A stretch of DNA of 64,000 nucleotides from the human T2T-CHM13v2.0 reference genome, Homo sapiens (GCF_009914755.1 NC_060943.1); one strand, 5' to 3'. Shown: positions 5,769 to 55,120, numbered from the stretch's first letter. The notes: a model not told the origin generated them from the letters alone. Program-made: numbers and translations.

Positions 5769-6239
5769 TATATCTAGCTTTTGGAGCTCAAACATTATGA
5801 TGCATTTTTTTCAACATTTCTATTTTCTTTTCTTTTAGTTTCTTTTATTTTCGTGTGTGTGGGCGGGGGGGGGGGCTGTGTATATACACACTCTTTGTCT
5901 GCATTTCTATTCTGAAGTTCTTTTTATTTTCCTTTATGACCTACTGACACTCTGTGTAGTGCCTGACTTTCTTTGAGTATATATTTTGTATTTTTACTCG
6001 GCTGTCCATCAAGTCTTATTCATGATGGGGTTTCCCTGTAACCTAACTTTTTAGTATTTATGGAGATGGATTTATCAGTATTTTCTTTTATATCCACTGG
6101 CTTGTTTGTTCATTTTAATGGAAAGTTTCCCACCGTATGATTATAGAAATATCCACCTATATTGTCTTATGGTGAGGTGAGCAAAGAAGTTCTCTACATG
6201 CTCTGAATATTCCTTCTGTCCTCAACTCAAATGCATCCT

Positions 6240-6610
6240 CAGAGTCCTTCAGCAACCAATTTCAGCTGCTAAAAGCAAGATATGGACCAAAACCGAACAT
6301 GATAGAGGGTTCTACTGGAGCTGATTATTTCTGAGAAAGAGCAAATGATCTCTGAAAACTAGCTGTTAGGATGTTCAGCTTGGTCCAGTTGCCAAACAAA
6401 ACCCCAGGGCAACTACTCACCACGGAATTTTCCCCCAATTAATAACCTACGAATGCCCGGCTTGAGTCCAAGCTCCATATGCACTGACACCCAACTCAGG
6501 AAGGCAACGGTTTTCCCAGAAACAGCACAACATAGCCAGTAGTTGGGAGACAACCATTTCTAAACCATAGAAAAGACTTCATACTAGCTATCTGTTTATA
6601 GATTGTGTTC
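6240..6610 (+). repeat. Y module copy Y0 of the local ancient duplication family
   Basis: CTCACCACGGAATTTTCCCC..AATGCCCGGCTTGAGTCCAAGC..CAACTCAGGAAGG..TTTTCCCAGAAACAGCACA..TTCTAAACCATAGAAA aligns with 24395-24830 and 30305-30636. Confidence 0.8.
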
Positions 6611-7294
6611 CTGGGTCATGTCCATAACTGGATTTTCTCTGGTGTTCTGGGAGCAAAAATCTTCTGTCTTCTTTTTGAGGTGAGTAGAGTCTTCCAAATG
6701 TCCTTCATGGCCCCAGCCCACCGTTTTCTTTATGTAGGAAGGTTTTAGATGTTGGCACATATTGACACCTACTTGCAGACAGGTTTGTTGAATTACATTA
6801 TATAAACGTTGAAATAATAACTCAAGCAGTGAGTACATTTTCACTCTTACTCCCCTGCACCTAGCTTTATAAATCGCTAAATACATGCATTCAGAGAATC
6901 TGTGTGCTTTTCTCAACAGCTATGTTGTGTAATGGTGAACATCATTATGCAAACACAGCTGCAAGGCAAGTTCCCTAGCTCCCAGCCTCAGATCAGACCT
7001 TCATTCCCAGGTCCCTTCTACGTGGAAGTTCTGGAGTCCACCTGCTCACAGATGCTCACAAAGCACTGGCGGGACATCTAAAGAGTAATAGGAACCCACA
7101 CCGATGTTCTAAGCAAGGATGGGACGTGGCCAGATTTTCCTTTGATAAATCTACTCAGACTCACACGAGAAAAATTAACTGAAGACCAGGAATGATGAAG
7201 GAGGAGCCCAGTGTAGAAATAGATGGTCGCAGGACACAGGAGAGAGACGATGGAGACAGGGATGAGGTGGGACAGTCAGGGAGAGGGAGAGATG

Positions 7295-7465
7295 CATCCA
7301 CGAATAAAGTTTTATTGGAATACAGCCCCATTCACTCATTCTATATTGTATATGGCTGCCTTCACACTACAAGGGCGGCAATGAGTAGCTGAGTCAGGTG
7401 CCGTATGGCCCACAAAGACTAAGACATTTACTACGTGCCTCTTTACAGGAAACTTTGTTTACACC
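7295..7465. mobile_element. MER58-type hAT fragment
   Basis: AATAAAGTTTTATTGGAA.ACAGCC..TATGGCTGC..TATGGCCCACAAAG.CTAA.ACATTTACT..CTTTACAG. Confidence 0.7.
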
Positions 7466-7854
7466 CAGCAAAATTGTTCCACATAATGATTCAGAAAAGC
7501 CTAATGATTCAGAAACTTTTGTTGACCCAGCTTCGAGGAAAATTCCACAGAGCTCACTTCCTGCATAGCTGGCACTCTCTTGGGTCATCATCACTGGTAG
7601 GCTTCTGTGAGAACAGCGGAATTTATCCTAAGGGCAATAGGAATGGCTGAAAGAGTCAGCAGGGGATGGCTTGACTCCTTGACCTGTATGTTCCTTCAAG
7701 GAGAAAGAGTAGTTAGAGTTGTTTTTGCAGTAACTTGAACAAGAGATCAGAAGGGCAGGCTGATGAAAAACCGATTTCTAAGGCAGAATGGACAAGTCTT
7801 CGAAAATTGATTGGCTACAGGGCTGCGGAGGGAGAATCTAGCACGGGTTTCATG

Positions 7855-8157
7855 GTTTTGTTTTTGTTTTTTTACAAGACAGAGTCTACGCTCTGTCATC
7901 CAGGCTGGAGTGCAGTGGCACAATCTTGGCCCACTGCAACCTCTGCCTCCTGGGTCCAAGTGATTCTCCTGTCTCAGCCGCCTGAGTAGCTGGGATTACA
8001 GGCGCACGCCACCACATCTGGCTAATTTTTGTATTTTTAGTAGAGGGGGTTTCACCATGTTGGCCAGGCTGGTCTCGAACTCCTGACCTCAGGCGATCAA
8101 CCTGCCTCAGGCCTCCCAACGTGCTGGGATTACAGGTGTGAGTCACTGCACCCGGCC
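7855..8157 (-). mobile_element. Alu
   Basis: antisense Alu dimer. Confidence 0.95.
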
Positions 8158-8541
8158 AGGTTTCATGTTTTTGCAAAAGCAGATGAGAAACAGCTCTCAG
8201 GCATGGATAGTACTCCTATCTCTGGGAAAAGAGACCCTGTGGATGTGGATGGACAAAGATTTTCTAGAAAGAGGATGAGTGAAGGGTGCTGACCTCCAAT
8301 GGAGGAAAAACACAATTCCAAAAGGAAAGAAAGGCTGACCAGGCCTAAGCAGGGCGTCTCTCCTTTCCTTTCCCCCAGGATTCCTTTAATGGGAAGGGCA
8401 GAGTCCCCAGGAAGCAACTCTTGGGGAGGAAGAAGAACGAAGCTCCCAGGCAGCTTTCTAACCACTCACCTGACTCCACCTATCCCTGGGAGGAGTCCCT
8501 GTCTCCATCCCCTAAATGGAGAGCAGAAAAACCTACGGCTA

Positions 8542-8853
8542 GGCTGGGCGCAGTGGCTCACACCCGTAATCCCAGCACTTTGGGAGGCTGAGGTGGGTGG
8601 ATCACTTGAGGTCAGGAGTTCAAAACCACCCTGGTCAACATGGTGATGCCCCGCCTCTACTAAAAATACACAAAAATAAATGGGGCATGGTGTTGGGTGC
8701 CTGTAGTCCCAAGGGAGGCTGAGGCGGGAGAATTGCTTGAACCTGGGAGACGGAGGTTGCAGTGAGCCGAGATCGCACCACTGCACTCCAGGCTGGGTGA
8801 CAGAGCAAGACTTCATTAAAAAAAAAAAAAAGGAAGAAAGAAAAAAAAGAAAA
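8542..8853 (+). mobile_element. Alu
   Basis: Alu dimer with A-rich tail. Confidence 0.95.
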
Positions 8854-52975: not shown

Positions 52976-53122
52976 CCCAGAATCCTGGCCACATTTTACT
53001 CTTTCTGAGAAAGCCATTCCCTTCGTGAGTGAGAAGGCGAGAGAGAGATTTAGAGAGACTTTGGGCTTCACTCTAGCATGTGGGTCATTAATCAGGGAAA
53101 TTCCGAGTAGGTTATAAATCTG
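52976..53122 (-). repeat. partial duplicate of Y6 (50457-50605)
   Basis: CCCAGAATCCTGGCCACATTTTACTCTTTC.GAGAAAGCCATTCCCTTC.TGAGTGAGAAGGCGAGAGAG shared. Confidence 0.95.
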
Positions 53123-53469
53123 TGCTTTTCCTCTCCCCCAGCAGCTCCATTCCTAGAAGTTTCACCAGAGCAAAGTCTCCCACGTTTGGGCGAAGGAGAG
53201 AAGTACATGTAGCAAGCACCAGCTCTGTGCTGTTTCAGGGTTGTTTGTAACAGCAGAAAATCCTGGGGCCATCGACAGGAGAAGAGATGAGTGGATCCTG
53301 CTGTGTTCCCCTAGTCGGATACTCTGTAGCCATTTAAGTGGATGACTGAGTGCCATGTGCACCCGCACGGATACGCGTCAAGGCAGTGATGATGTTTGAG
53401 GATGACACGTCTCAATACCGCGCAGCTAGTCTCACCACCCAGTCACTCTCTGTCTCAGTCGACTCAGGC

Positions 53470-54205
53470 TGGGTCTCAGTCTGTTTGTGCTAACAAAATA
53501 CCACAAACTGGGTAATTTATGAAGAACAGGGATTTATTTCTCACAGTTCTAGAGGCTGGAAGTCCCAGATCGAGGTGTCAGTGGCTCAGTCCCTGGTGGG
53601 GGCTCTCCTCCTGGCTTGCGGACGGCCTCCTTCTCCCTGTGTCCTCACATGGTGGGAGAGACTTAGTGTCTGGAGAACTCACTTTCCCTTCTCATAGAGA
53701 CATGAAACCTGTCATGGGCCCTACCCTGGTGGCCTCATTTAAATCTAATCATTGGCCAGGCACGGTGGCTCATGCCTATAATCCCAGCACTTTGGGAGGC
53801 CGAGGCGGGTGGATCTCCTGATGTCAGCAGTTCAAGAGTGGCCTGGTTAACGTGGGGAAACCCTGTCTCTACTAAAAATACAAAAATTAGCCAGGCATGA
53901 CGATGGGCGCCTGTAATCCCAGCTACTCAGGAGGATAAGGCAGGAGTATCACTTGAACCCAGGAGGCAGAGGTTGCAGTGAGCCGAGATCGCGCCATTGC
54001 ACTCCAGCCTGGGTGACAGAGCAAGACTCTATAAAAAAAAAAAGAAGAAGAAGAAGAAGGAGGAGGAGGAGGAGGAGGAGGAAGGGGAGGAGGAGGAGGA
54101 GGAAAATCTAATCGCCTTCCAAAGGCCCTGCTTCCAAGCACCATCACACTGGGGCTTTGGGCTTCAACGTATGATTTTGGGGGGTAAACAAATGCAATCC
54201 ATAGC
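53470..54205. mobile_element. MST/MLT1A-type MaLR LTR containing an Alu (53753-54045) and a GAA/GGA repeat
   Basis: AACAAAATACCA.AAACTGGGTAATTTAT..ATTTATTTCTCACAGTTCT.GAGGCTGGAAGTCC..GCTTCAAC.TATGA.TTTGGGGG. Confidence 0.8.
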
Positions 54206-54489
54206 ACTGTCTATGTTCCTCATTGTATGAAGAACTGAAATTGTTTCCTGACAGCTTTGCAATTCCTGACAGTTTTGAGCTTTATCCACCAAAATCTACC
54301 TGGCAAGGAGAGCTAGGTGCATGCCATTCTCCCTAGAATCGAACACTGATCAGTTCTGGTTTTGCCTTGCAAGGAAGAAACATTCCTTACAGCACAGAGA
54401 GTGCAGGTGGGGATGGGAAACACGTTTTGTTCTTTTCCTGAGCTCATGTTGTGTTCCTTGTATGCTGGGACATTTTCAAACCCACGCAT

Positions 54490-54640
54490 GCTCACCTCTG
54501 GAGCCTGGACATTGCCCAGCCCTGAGCCTCTCTCAGCAGCCCCTTCCTGGCTCCCACACAAGCTGCAGTTTCCATGGCAACAGGCAGAGCTGGCCTTTGT
54601 CCTTGGAGCCTCCCGGTGAGAGGTCTTTAGGGAAAACAGG
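54490..54640 (-). promoter_or_regulatory. P module copy E with consensus RFX X-box and 5' splice-site-like sequence
   Basis: Minus strand: TTTTCCCTAAAGAC..GTTGCCATGGAAAC (54568-54581)..AATGTCCAGGCTCCAGAG/GTGAGC. Confidence 0.7.
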
Positions 54641-54894
54641 CTGGAGCAATGGACAACAAAATTAAACAGCATGGGGCCCCGAGGCGTGTTCTTTCCTATA
54701 ATTAAACTGCACCCTTGGACATTTGTAGAATGCCATAAATTGGCTGTACCCTGCTCAGCATTCCAAGTCCCCTGCAAGCATCATAATCAACCATTATCTG
54801 CTTTCATCATTTGTTTCTTCATTTGTCCATGCATTAACCATTGATTTTACCCCAACAGTAGTAGCAGACACGCTTCTAGAAAATGGAGATCTTG

Positions 54895-55120
54895 CAGAGG
54901 TTTCTAACCAGGGACCATTTTGCTTACAAAGAGGCATTCGGAAATACTTTCAGTCGGCACAGCTGGAAGGGGTGGGTTCTATTAGCCTTGAGTGGGTAGA
55001 GGCCAGAGGTGCTGCTAAACATCCCATAGTGTACAGAACAGCCAACCCCTGCCGACCCCGACACACAAGGAGGAATGTTCTGGCCCCACAAGTCAGGAGT
55101 GCCCTGGCCGAGAAACCCTG
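54895..55120. mobile_element. MER20-type
   Basis: AGTGGGTAGAGGCCAG.G.TGCTGCTAAACATCC..GAGAAACCCTG. Confidence 0.7.

What the first reader, a model, noticed from the sequence alone, without database searches (positions are those of the whole stretch)
6000..54900. Hidden ancient array of at least 7 paralogous multi-kb units underlying most of the window
Seen: once Alus, MERs and LTRs are set aside, the same ordered blocks recur: P module (X-box) > antisense old-L1 remnant > shared L1 junction (e.g. 6130-6186 vs rev-comp 36828-36880) > Y module > Z motif (CCCT.C.A.GT.G.AATTCT.GAGCT at ~7012, ~17101, ~32025 on +; ~41540, ~49935 on -) > L2 remnant. Y copies lie at 6.3, 16.3, 24.4, 30.3 kb (+) and 36.7, 43.0, 50.5 kb (-). 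P copies lie 2.5-4 kb upstream of five of them. Y2 and Y3 differ at about a quarter of sites by my hand count, and each unit has its own set of Alu/MER/L1MB insertions. Inference: the duplications predate those insertions and are too diverged for standard >90%-identity segmental-duplication tracks. Retention of a promoter-like module in most units suggests a family of non-coding transcription units, such as germline lncRNA/pachytene-piRNA precursors (such clusters are reported to expand by duplication), or a decayed gene family.
Basis: partly seen in the sequence, partly recalled or inferred. Interest (0 to 1): 0.92.

Follow-up and report, generated by a model that had tools for sequence, protein, structure and literature searches.

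The report
Ancient duplicated enhancer modules near PEG3
The gene-free stretch beside the imprinted gene PEG3 is built from very old, locally duplicated blocks, and their best-kept cores coincide with conserved regulatory elements already described there, so the pattern is real but mostly explains known putative enhancers rather than a new kind of gene.

Summary
The repeated blocks are real. After masking Alus, a Y block recurs 7 times in the window. It is followed by a Z block in 5 of 7 cases. All 5 P blocks have a Y-family block 1-4.5 kb downstream on the same strand (3 of 20000 random placements do as well). Unit pairs align as colinear chains over 2-5 kb at about 55-70% identity.

Y matches nothing elsewhere in the human genome. 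Z is a fragment of an old dispersed repeat that was copied along with the unit. P was found only locally, but that search was weak. The families extend beyond the window: about 21 P and 14 Y modules over about 215 kb.

Published bisulfite primers place human ECR13 on the Y block at 16.4 kb and ECR8 on another Y copy. P carries the RFX1-type and NF-kB-type motif pair that Kim & Ye (2016) reported in several PEG3-domain ECRs; they only guessed that ECRs arose by duplication.

Best reading: an ancient local duplication array whose conserved cores are the known putative enhancers of the PEG3 imprinted domain. I found no sign of coding remnants, CpG islands or known RNA families, so the piRNA/lncRNA and decayed-gene ideas have no support here. 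The sequence-level paralogy seems unpublished. Interest is moderate.

The parts
4100..7290 (+). Unit U1. Blocks: A 4100-4385, B 4992-5422, Yup 5901-6252, Y 6277-6676, Y-Z linker 6680-6935, Z 6941-7290. No P was detected.
   Evidence: nhmmer. Colinear chain with U6, 5 of 5 HSPs.
12477..17241 (+). Unit U2. Blocks: P 12477-13074, Yup 15988-16354, Y 16330-16842, Z 17034-17241. The Y block is human ECR13.
   Evidence: The published hECR13 bisulfite primer maps to 16363-16391 with 1 mismatch as its only match.
19795..24967 (+). Unit U3. Blocks: A 20378-20593, B 21095-21441, Yup 22121-22326, then a 29-bp x 46 tandem array at 22356-23698, then Y 24398-24967. The unit is cut off by a dispersed-repeat copy at 25011-25650.
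   Evidence: A 12-mer of the mouse ECR14 primer occurs only at 24681-24692 (weak link).
26870..32353 (+). Unit U4. Blocks: P 26870-27233, Y 30177-30622, Z 31999-32353. Alus at 30637-30927 and 31459-31754 lie between Y and Z.
36828..39703 (-). Unit U5. Blocks: P 39703-39153, A 37920-37756, B 37448-37179, Yup fragment 36982-36828. No Y core or Z was detected.
41487..47387 (-). Unit U6. Blocks: P 47387-46977, A 45402-45025, B 44587-44066, Y 43487-42824, Z 41625-41487.
49645..50861 (-). Unit U7. Blocks: Y 50861-50223, Z 50031-49645.
52947..54848 (-). Unit U8. Blocks: P 54848-54501 and Y 53142-52947. Its Y is a younger copy of the U7 Y (88% identity). It belongs to a 2.4-2.5 kb tandem duplication, 48493-50608 versus 50874-53122, at 85-92% identity.
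61301..62683 (.). Two further Z-like copies, 61446-61650 (+) and 62574-62330 (-). They lie inside a 93%-identical inverted repeat, 61301-61705 versus 62683-62275.

Best explanation
The window is part of a much larger, very old array in the gene-free interval upstream of PEG3 (80-144 kb from its start). It was made by repeated local duplication, both tandem and inverted.

The duplicated unit was a composite of several kb. It held a P module, intermediate blocks (A, B, Yup), a Y module, and a fragment of an already resident old dispersed repeat (Z).

The duplications happened in a burst before the placental mammals diverged. Later Alus, other repeats, tandem arrays and deletions broke the units up. 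Most unit sequence has decayed to the limit of detection.

What stayed recognisable are short cores that coincide with the published ECRs of the PEG3 imprinted domain. These are Y-type cores (ECR8, ECR13, probably ECR14) and P-type cores. Each P-type core carries an RFX-type X-box and, 54-76 nt away, an NF-kB-like motif.

I infer that these cores are kept by selection as a set of related, partly redundant distal enhancers for PEG3 and its imprinted neighbours, bound by shared factors (an RFX protein at P).

Shown here: the paralogy, the order and orientation of blocks, the locus restriction of Y, and the identity of two Y copies with ECRs. Taken from the literature: enhancer marks and conservation across mammals. 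Inferred: selection on the motifs, RFX binding, and the dating.
For: Locus restriction of Y:
- Whole-genome DNA searches with Y of U3 and with Y+Z of U1 return only copies in this locus (5 of 5 and 2 of 2 candidates).
- The same tool finds 13403, 2060 and 45 candidates for other old repeats in the window, so it can detect dispersed families.
- Exhaustive pattern searches with a 34-nt and a 27-nt Y consensus stretch, up to 3 mismatches, hit only the two local copies. The reversed-pattern control gave 0.

Order and orientation:
- The P>Y>Z order and shared strand are far beyond chance.
- Unit pairs form colinear chains over several kb.

Extent:
- In the 264 kb examined there are 24 P hits, which reduce to 21-22 modules, between -54 kb and +160 kb.
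- There are 15 Y hits, which reduce to 14 modules, between -20 kb and +140 kb.

Age:
- Y pairs have median identity 55% and K2P 0.71.
- The tree is star-like, with median terminal branch 0.35. Only U7-U8 (100/100), L013-L015 (89/88) and U3-U4 (80/85) are resolved.

Link to known ECRs:
- The hECR13 primer maps at window 16363, inside the Y of U2.
- The hECR8 primer maps at L013:9756, inside a Y copy at L013:9726-9976.
- In P, the two best-kept 14-column windows are the X-box (mean 0.90) and the NF-kB-like site (0.88), against a median of 0.68 over 313 windows. The same X-box 14-mer is found in 8 of 22 aligned copies.
- Kim & Ye 2016 (PMC4841594, sections 6, 8 and 10 read) report NF-kB (GGAATTTT) and RFX1 (CCATGG) motifs together in ECR3, 12, 14 and 16. 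They report H3K4me1/H3K27ac marks on most ECRs and conserved order in placental mammals. They speculate that ECRs were duplicated.
Against: - Z is not locus-specific. Part of the unit is therefore transposon-derived.
- The evidence that P is locus-restricted is weak. Four DNA searches found no copy elsewhere, but they also missed nearly all local P copies. No exhaustive pattern search was run for P.
- The apparent motif conservation in P is partly an ascertainment effect, because hits were found and aligned through a profile that weights those columns.
- X-box to NF-kB-like spacing is not fixed: 54-76 nt in 14 of 15 scorable copies and 30 nt in one.
- Human ECR5 and ECR18 map to places with no P or Y hit, so not all ECRs belong to these families.
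- In the right flank, eight same-strand P copies between 82 and 125 kb have no Y downstream. The only Y in that stretch, at 103 kb, is on the opposite strand. The P-Y unit therefore does not hold throughout the array.
- No chromatin, binding, expression or cross-species data could be examined here.
Confidence: 0.7

Rival explanations
1. The repeated blocks are independent insertions of one or more ancient dispersed transposons (of L2, MIR, LTR or DNA-transposon age), not local duplications.
For: - The divergence between copies (K2P about 0.7) and the star-like tree look like an old transposon burst.
- Z does belong to a dispersed family: 29 hits elsewhere against 2 for the control.
- Homology of U7 to one unlinked locus runs about 390 nt, from the Y-Z linker into Z.
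Against: - Y has no copy elsewhere by two DNA searches and two exhaustive pattern searches.
- None of 5 unlinked Z-bearing loci, each with 1.5 kb on both sides, has any match to the Y core.
- The window holds 3 of the 32 best Z-motif matches in the genome. That is several thousand times the genome-wide density.
- Blocks keep the same order and strand over several kb.
Confidence: 0.05
2. The units are relics of a tandemly duplicated protein-coding gene family, for example zinc-finger or receptor genes. P would be the old promoter and Y/Z the old exons.
For: - The PEG3 domain lies in a zinc-finger gene cluster prone to duplication (review PMC4196374, passage seen).
- The unit has a fixed order and direction.
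Against: - Six-frame translations with stops read as X found no Pfam family above noise. These covered five Y/Z units (30 frames) and 43801-47400 of U6 (6 frames).
- The hub annotation lists no gene or pseudogene in the window.
- Only about a quarter of the window was scanned this way. A wider scan failed because its output was too large.
Confidence: 0.05
3. One reading: P modules are promoters of a family of unannotated non-coding transcripts, such as germline lncRNAs or pachytene piRNA precursors.
For: - P has a fixed orientation relative to the downstream blocks.
- RFX-family factors are active in the germ line (recalled, not tested).
- Oocyte-specific bidirectional transcripts start from an alternative promoter in this interval (bioRxiv 10.1101/2025.07.14.664778, section 10 read).
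Against: - P modules are not CpG islands: GC 0.49-0.60 and CpG observed/expected 0.15-0.43.
- Rfam finds nothing in the units.
- No transcript is annotated in the window (hub annotation).
- Published work treats these elements as enhancers on the basis of H3K4me1/H3K27ac (PMC4841594, section 6).
- No expression data could be examined here.
Confidence: 0.1
4. The array is a neutral fossil. The duplications are real, but the blocks have no function, and their overlap with ECRs is limited to a few copies.
For: - Most unit sequence has decayed; only 8475 of 64000 bases are recognisable.
- Block content differs from unit to unit.
- Divergence is close to what old neutral repeats show (inference).
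- The apparent motif conservation is partly due to how the copies were found.
Against: - Two of four mapped human ECRs are Y copies.
- The P motif pair equals the motif pair reported as conserved across mammals in several ECRs (PMC4841594, section 8).
- Within P, conservation is concentrated in two short windows rather than spread evenly.
- The Y of U3 has a much shorter branch (0.11) than the others, whose median is 0.35.
Confidence: 0.15

Closest known systems
Evolutionarily conserved regions (ECR1-18/20) of the PEG3 imprinted domain (Kim lab; PMC3769284, PMC4841594)
   Same: - Same genomic interval.
- Human ECR8 and ECR13 amplicons fall on Y copies.
- P carries the NF-kB-type plus RFX1-type motif pair reported for ECR3, 12, 14 and 16.
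- The authors noted that neighbouring ECRs share motifs and guessed at duplication.
   Different: - The papers define ECRs by cross-species conservation and motif content, not by similarity to each other. In the texts I read, no alignment between ECRs, no families and no larger unit are reported.
- Here there are two sequence families with about 21 and 14 members, more than the 18-20 ECRs, embedded in multi-kb units.
- ECR5 and ECR18 do not belong to either family.
Segmental or tandem duplications as catalogued in genome browsers (at least 1 kb, at least 90% identity)
   Same: Local copies in direct and inverted orientation. One younger event, 48493-50608 versus 50874-53122 at 85-92%, and one 93% inverted repeat at 61.3-62.7 kb show the same process continuing.
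   Different: The main array is at 46-73% identity and is broken into blocks of 150-600 nt. It is far below any duplication track threshold.
Clusters of paralogous or redundant ('shadow') enhancers formed by duplication
   Same: Many related regulatory modules sharing factor motifs, spread over a long gene-free interval that serves a few promoters.
   Different: Activity, redundancy and target genes of the individual modules are not shown here. The copy number is unusually high.
RFX-bound X-box elements (ciliary gene promoters, MHC class II S-X-Y modules)
   Same: A 14-nt palindromic X-box-like site with a CCATGG centre, kept in most P copies.
   Different: - The match to the RFX consensus is judged from memory, not scored.
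- No S or Y boxes are present and the spacing to the second motif is not fixed.
- The sites lie in distal elements rather than proximal promoters.

Membership tests
PEG3-domain ECRs (Kim & Ye 2016) | Lies in the middle 200-250 kb interval between PEG3/MIMT1 and USP29/ZIM3 | tested here: met
   The hub annotation places the window 80-144 kb upstream of the PEG3 start. hECR5, 8, 13 and 18 primers map at -35.8, -20.2, +16.4 and +137.8 kb in window coordinates.
PEG3-domain ECRs (Kim & Ye 2016) | Identity with a published ECR | tested here: met
   Met for two Y copies: ECR13 at window 16363 and ECR8 at L013:9756. Not met for ECR5 and ECR18, which overlap no family hit. The other 14 ECRs could not be mapped because supplements S1 (rtf) and S3 (pdf) were unreadable.
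PEG3-domain ECRs (Kim & Ye 2016) | NF-kB (GGAATTTT) and RFX1 (CCATGG) motifs occurring together | tested here: met
   15 of 22 aligned P copies show both sites. The Y of U3 also has both motifs adjacent (alignment).
PEG3-domain ECRs (Kim & Ye 2016) | Conserved across placental mammals; H3K4me1/H3K27ac marks | not testable with these tools
   No other mammalian genome and no epigenomic data were available. This feature is taken from PMC4841594, sections 5 and 6.
Dispersed transposon family | Many copies on other chromosomes | tested here: not met
   This verdict is for Y: only local hits. Z does meet the feature, with 29 of 32 hits elsewhere. P is inconclusive: no hit elsewhere, but the searches were insensitive.
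Protein-coding pseudogene family | Recognisable protein-domain remnants in a consistent strand | tested here: not met
   Pfam found no family in 36 stop-tolerant frames covering five Y/Z units and U6 43801-47400. The rest of the window was not scanned.
Pachytene piRNA or germline lncRNA cluster | Germline transcription start at the promoter module; dense 26-31-nt small RNAs | not testable with these tools
   No expression data. The only indirect evidence is that P is not a CpG island and Rfam has no hit.
RFX X-box site | Palindromic 13-14-nt site matching the RFX consensus | tested here: inconclusive
   A palindromic 14-mer is kept in most copies. The comparison with the RFX consensus is from memory and no matrix was scored.

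The most novel reading that the evidence does not exclude
The whole gene-free interval between PEG3/MIMT1 and USP29 (at least 215 kb) is one ancient array of about 35 or more paralogous regulatory modules of two types. The roughly 20 P-type modules have each been kept by selection as RFX-bound elements. An imprinted domain would then be controlled by a duplicated, partly redundant enhancer array (or by a set of still unannotated germline promoters). The array's copy number and orientation pattern would themselves matter for dosage or for setting the imprint.
Probability: 0.2. Interest if true: 0.6.

Novelty: new member of a known kind. Interest (0 to 1): 0.4.

Why it matters
The PEG3 domain is a well-studied imprinted region. 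Its 18-20 conserved non-coding elements have been treated one by one, and their shared motifs were called 'very unexpected' (PMC4841594).

If many of them are diverged copies of two ancestral modules carried in one multi-kb unit, several things follow:
- The motif sharing is explained.
- There is a direct evolutionary account of how the enhancer landscape of an imprinted domain was built.
- Further candidate elements are predicted, since there are more P and Y copies than named ECRs.
- Redundancy is likely, and it should be allowed for when single ECRs are deleted in mice.

This refines a known system. It is not a new kind of element.

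Tried and rejected
- Decayed receptor or zinc-finger genes: rejected after Pfam found nothing. A wider six-frame scan failed because its output was too large, so I scanned only one more unit.
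- Y as an L2- or MIR-like abundant repeat: I considered this seriously because the divergence and the tree look transposon-like. I rejected it.
- Mirror-image duplication of a four-unit array about 33 kb: the spacing of + and - units looks symmetric, but mirrored pairs are not each other's closest relatives. There is no support for it.
- Profile search of the whole genome with a sequence-only covariance model of Y (R1): this genome cannot be searched that way, so I used pattern searches instead.
Controls therefore rest on whole-genome searches and on five unlinked loci.
P's genome-wide status stays weakly tested.
- Mouse ECR12 and ECR13 primers with up to 3 mismatches: no match in the window. 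This is uninformative at human-mouse divergence.
- The left 240 nt of P looked MIR-like to me from memory. It shows no similarity to the dispersed segments of the window, so I do not claim this.
- The Alu pair 48898-49183 and 51398-51677 inside the younger duplication is only 77% identical, like random Alu pairs (median 77%). These are separate insertions and do not date the event.

Full report
**What the window is.** The hub annotation places the window at T2T chr19:60016001-60080000. That is 80-144 kb upstream of the PEG3 start, in the gene-free interval between PEG3/MIMT1 and USP29. Self-comparison shows 45 high-depth intervals totalling 14,055 bases. Nearly all are Alu-sized. One is a tandem array at 22356-23702. 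I masked 16,167 bases and repeated the self-comparison with short words, then with nhmmer piece by piece.

**Checking the observation.**
- The Y block is real. Copies lie at 6277-6676, 16330-16842, 24398-24967 and 30177-30622 on +.
- Y and Z keep their spacing. 5932-7290 aligns in one stretch with 16104-17234 and with 50861-49715.
- P copies lie at 12477, 26870, 39703(-), 47387(-) and 54848(-).
- All 5 P copies have a Y-family block 1-4.5 kb downstream on the same strand; 3 of 20000 random placements match this. 5 of 7 Y copies have a Z 0.3-2 kb downstream; 1 of 20000 matches this.
- Between units placed in the same orientation, every HSP falls on one colinear chain in the best pairs. U1/U6 has 5 of 5 over 3.0 and 3.8 kb. 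U3/U6 has 5 of 5. U2/U4 and U2/U5 have 3 of 3 each. 20 of 21 pairs have at least one HSP.
- Two further blocks, A and B, lie between P and Y in U1, U3, U5 and U6.

The ordered, oriented, multi-kb units therefore exist, and there are eight of them. The recognisable blocks add up to only 8475 of 64000 bases. Y2 and Y3 differ at 39% of sites rather than a quarter.

- Y is local only. Whole-genome DNA searches with Y of U3 and with Y+Z of U1 gave 5 and 2 candidates, all in this locus. The same tool gave 13403 candidates for the repeat at 8860-9525, 2060 for two short repeats at 4457-4964, and 45 for 13104-13393. Exhaustive pattern searches with 34-nt and 27-nt stretches of the Y consensus, up to 3 mismatches, found only the two local copies and 0 control hits.
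- Z is dispersed. With up to 2 mismatches the motif has 32 genomic hits, 29 of them on other chromosomes, against 2 for the reversed control. The unlinked hits share letters at the free positions, so they are homologous copies. In five unlinked loci, each with 1.5 kb on both sides, homology to the local units is confined to 45-390 nt around the motif. None of the five has any match to the Y core. Z is therefore a fragment of an old interspersed repeat that already sat in the unit when it was copied. The window holds 3 of the 32 best matches in 3.1 Gb, which only local duplication can explain.
- P is uncertain. Four DNA searches found nothing elsewhere, and one local copy was picked up. These searches miss most local P copies too, so the evidence is weak. 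I could not run a consensus-motif search for P.

**The array is larger than the window.** I fetched 100 kb on each side. Iterated nhmmer profiles give 24 P hits. One is an internal inverted partial, two are halves of one split copy, and one is weak, leaving 21-22 modules between -54 kb and +160 kb. There are 15 Y hits, which make 14 modules, between -20 kb and +140 kb. P orientation changes in blocks: - at -54 kb, + at 12-27 kb, - at 39-55 kb, + at 64-68 kb, - at 69-70 kb, + at 82-125 kb and - at 145-160 kb. Eight same-strand P copies between 82 and 125 kb have no Y downstream; the only Y in that stretch, at 103 kb, is on the opposite strand. The P-Y unit therefore typifies the window but not the whole array. 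The ends of the array were not reached.

**Age and history.**
- Y pairs are 46-73% identical, with median 55% and K2P median 0.71. The exception is U7/U8 at 88%.
- The maximum-likelihood tree is a star with terminal branches of median 0.35. Only U7-U8 (100/100), L013-L015 (89/88) and U3-U4 (80/85) are resolved. A simple mirror duplication about 33 kb is not supported.
- I infer a burst of duplications of roughly the age of the oldest mammalian interspersed repeats. The burst predates the placental radiation, because separate Y copies are separate ECRs, each with its own mouse counterpart (PMC4841594).
- Alus lie at different positions in each unit (one search compared), so they came later.
- Younger events continue the process: the 2.4-2.5 kb tandem duplication that made U8 (85-92%) and a 93% inverted repeat at 61.3-62.7 kb.

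**What the modules are.** In the P alignment, two short windows stand out against a background that is about 68% conserved. One is a 14-nt palindromic X-box-like site (mean 0.90). The other is a site containing the GGAATTTT motif (0.88). The median of 313 windows is 0.68.
- The identical X-box 14-mer is present in 8 of 22 aligned copies.
- 15 copies show both sites, 54-76 nt apart in 14 of them and 30 nt apart in one.

A literature search led to Kim & Ye 2016 (PMC4841594; I read sections 5, 6, 8 and 10 and supplement 1). They describe 18 evolutionarily conserved regions (ECRs) in this interval.
- Most ECRs are marked by H3K4me1/H3K27ac in mouse tissues, and they are found only in placental mammals with conserved order.
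- NF-kB (GGAATTTT) and RFX1 (CCATGG) motifs occur together in ECR3, 12, 14 and 16. The authors called this sharing 'very unexpected'.
- Their Discussion speculates that a few ancestral ECRs were duplicated.

I mapped their human bisulfite primers, writing T as Y.
- hECR13 starts at window 16363, inside the Y of U2.
- hECR8 starts at L013:9756, inside a Y copy.
- hECR5 and hECR18 map to places without P or Y hits.
- A 12-mer of the mouse ECR14 primer is unique in the window, at 24681 in the Y of U3 (0.01 expected by chance). This fits the position predicted by scaling mouse distances, but it is a weak link.
- From position and motifs, the P of U2 is probably ECR12 (inference only).

- Stop-tolerant six-frame Pfam scans of five Y/Z units and of U6 43801-47400 found no family above noise.
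- P and Y are not CpG islands.
- Rfam finds only two tRNA-like hits at 1.7-1.9 kb, outside the units.
- Expression, small RNAs, chromatin and factor binding could not be examined.

**Is it in print?** Searches found only Kim-lab papers on these elements. 'Duplicat' and 'paralog' do not occur in PMC3769284. In the review PMC4196374, 'duplicat' occurs once, about zinc-finger genes. PMC4841594 offers duplication only as a guess from motif sharing. I found no alignment of ECRs with each other, no families and no larger unit. Supplements S1-S4 of PMC4841594 could not be read and might bear on this.

**Verdict.** The ancient-duplication inference is right. The proposed functions are unsupported. The best reading is an old local duplication array whose surviving cores are the known putative enhancers of the PEG3 imprinted domain. 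The sequence-level paralogy appears to be new, but it refines a known system.

Noticed in passing
window 22356-23698: A CpG-rich 29-bp unit repeated about 46 times at 95% match. It sits inside unit U3 between the Yup and Y blocks. A GC-rich minisatellite in an imprinted domain may be length-variable or methylated.
   Followed up: partly
window 60344-60690: A 58-bp unit repeated 6 times at 93% match. It lies just before the inverted repeat that carries Z-like copies.
   Followed up: no
window 61301-61705 and 62275-62683: An inverted repeat about 400 nt long and 93% identical, with a spacer of about 570 nt. Each arm holds a Z-like sequence.
   Followed up: partly
window 48493-50608 and 50874-53122: A younger tandem duplication of about 2.4-2.5 kb at 85-92% identity that produced the eighth unit. 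The Alus inside the two copies are only 77% alike, so they inserted separately.
   Followed up: yes
window 1664-1732 and 1792-1862: Two AT-rich tRNA-like sequences 59 nt apart (Rfam 34.6 and 32.6 bits; ARAGORN calls the second tRNA-Leu, anticodon aag). From memory, the layout resembles the mitochondrial tRNA-His/Ser/Leu cluster, so this may be an old nuclear copy of mitochondrial DNA. Not tested.
   Followed up: partly
window 8860-9525, with copies at 9-452, 14250-14904, 25011-25650, 28595-29497, 45917-46710, 62589-62973 and 63508-63846: A dispersed repeat with 13403 candidate copies genome-wide at 73-78% identity. Eight copies lie in the window, and one of them cuts off unit U3. I could not name the family.
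   Followed up: partly
window 19795-20370, 27792-28158, 33597-33998, 53472-54220: A two-part block recurs four times, always on the same strand whatever the orientation of the unit around it. In U4 and U8 it lies between P and Y. It could be a separate repeat or a local inversion; undecided.
   Followed up: no
window 31198-31997 versus 34070-33598: Inverted matches flank about 32.7 kb, the point where the + units meet the - units tail to tail.
   Followed up: no
alignment A1 (Y family), columns 214-225: One of the best-kept Y stretches contains a TTCNNNGAA-type palindrome, which I recall as a STAT-like site. Read by eye, it is intact in 7 of 12 aligned copies. The Y of U3 also has CCATGG next to GGAATTTT.
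   Followed up: no
window 50685-50478 and 53207-52996: The profile of block A also matches inside the Y blocks of U7 and U8. A and Y may therefore share an older internal duplication.
   Followed up: no
window 55549-55843 (RefSeq enhancer/silencer): The only annotated functional element lies about 700 nt beyond the 5' end of the P of U8. It belongs to neither family. Part of it (55703-55821) has an 82% copy at 57201-57327.
   Followed up: no
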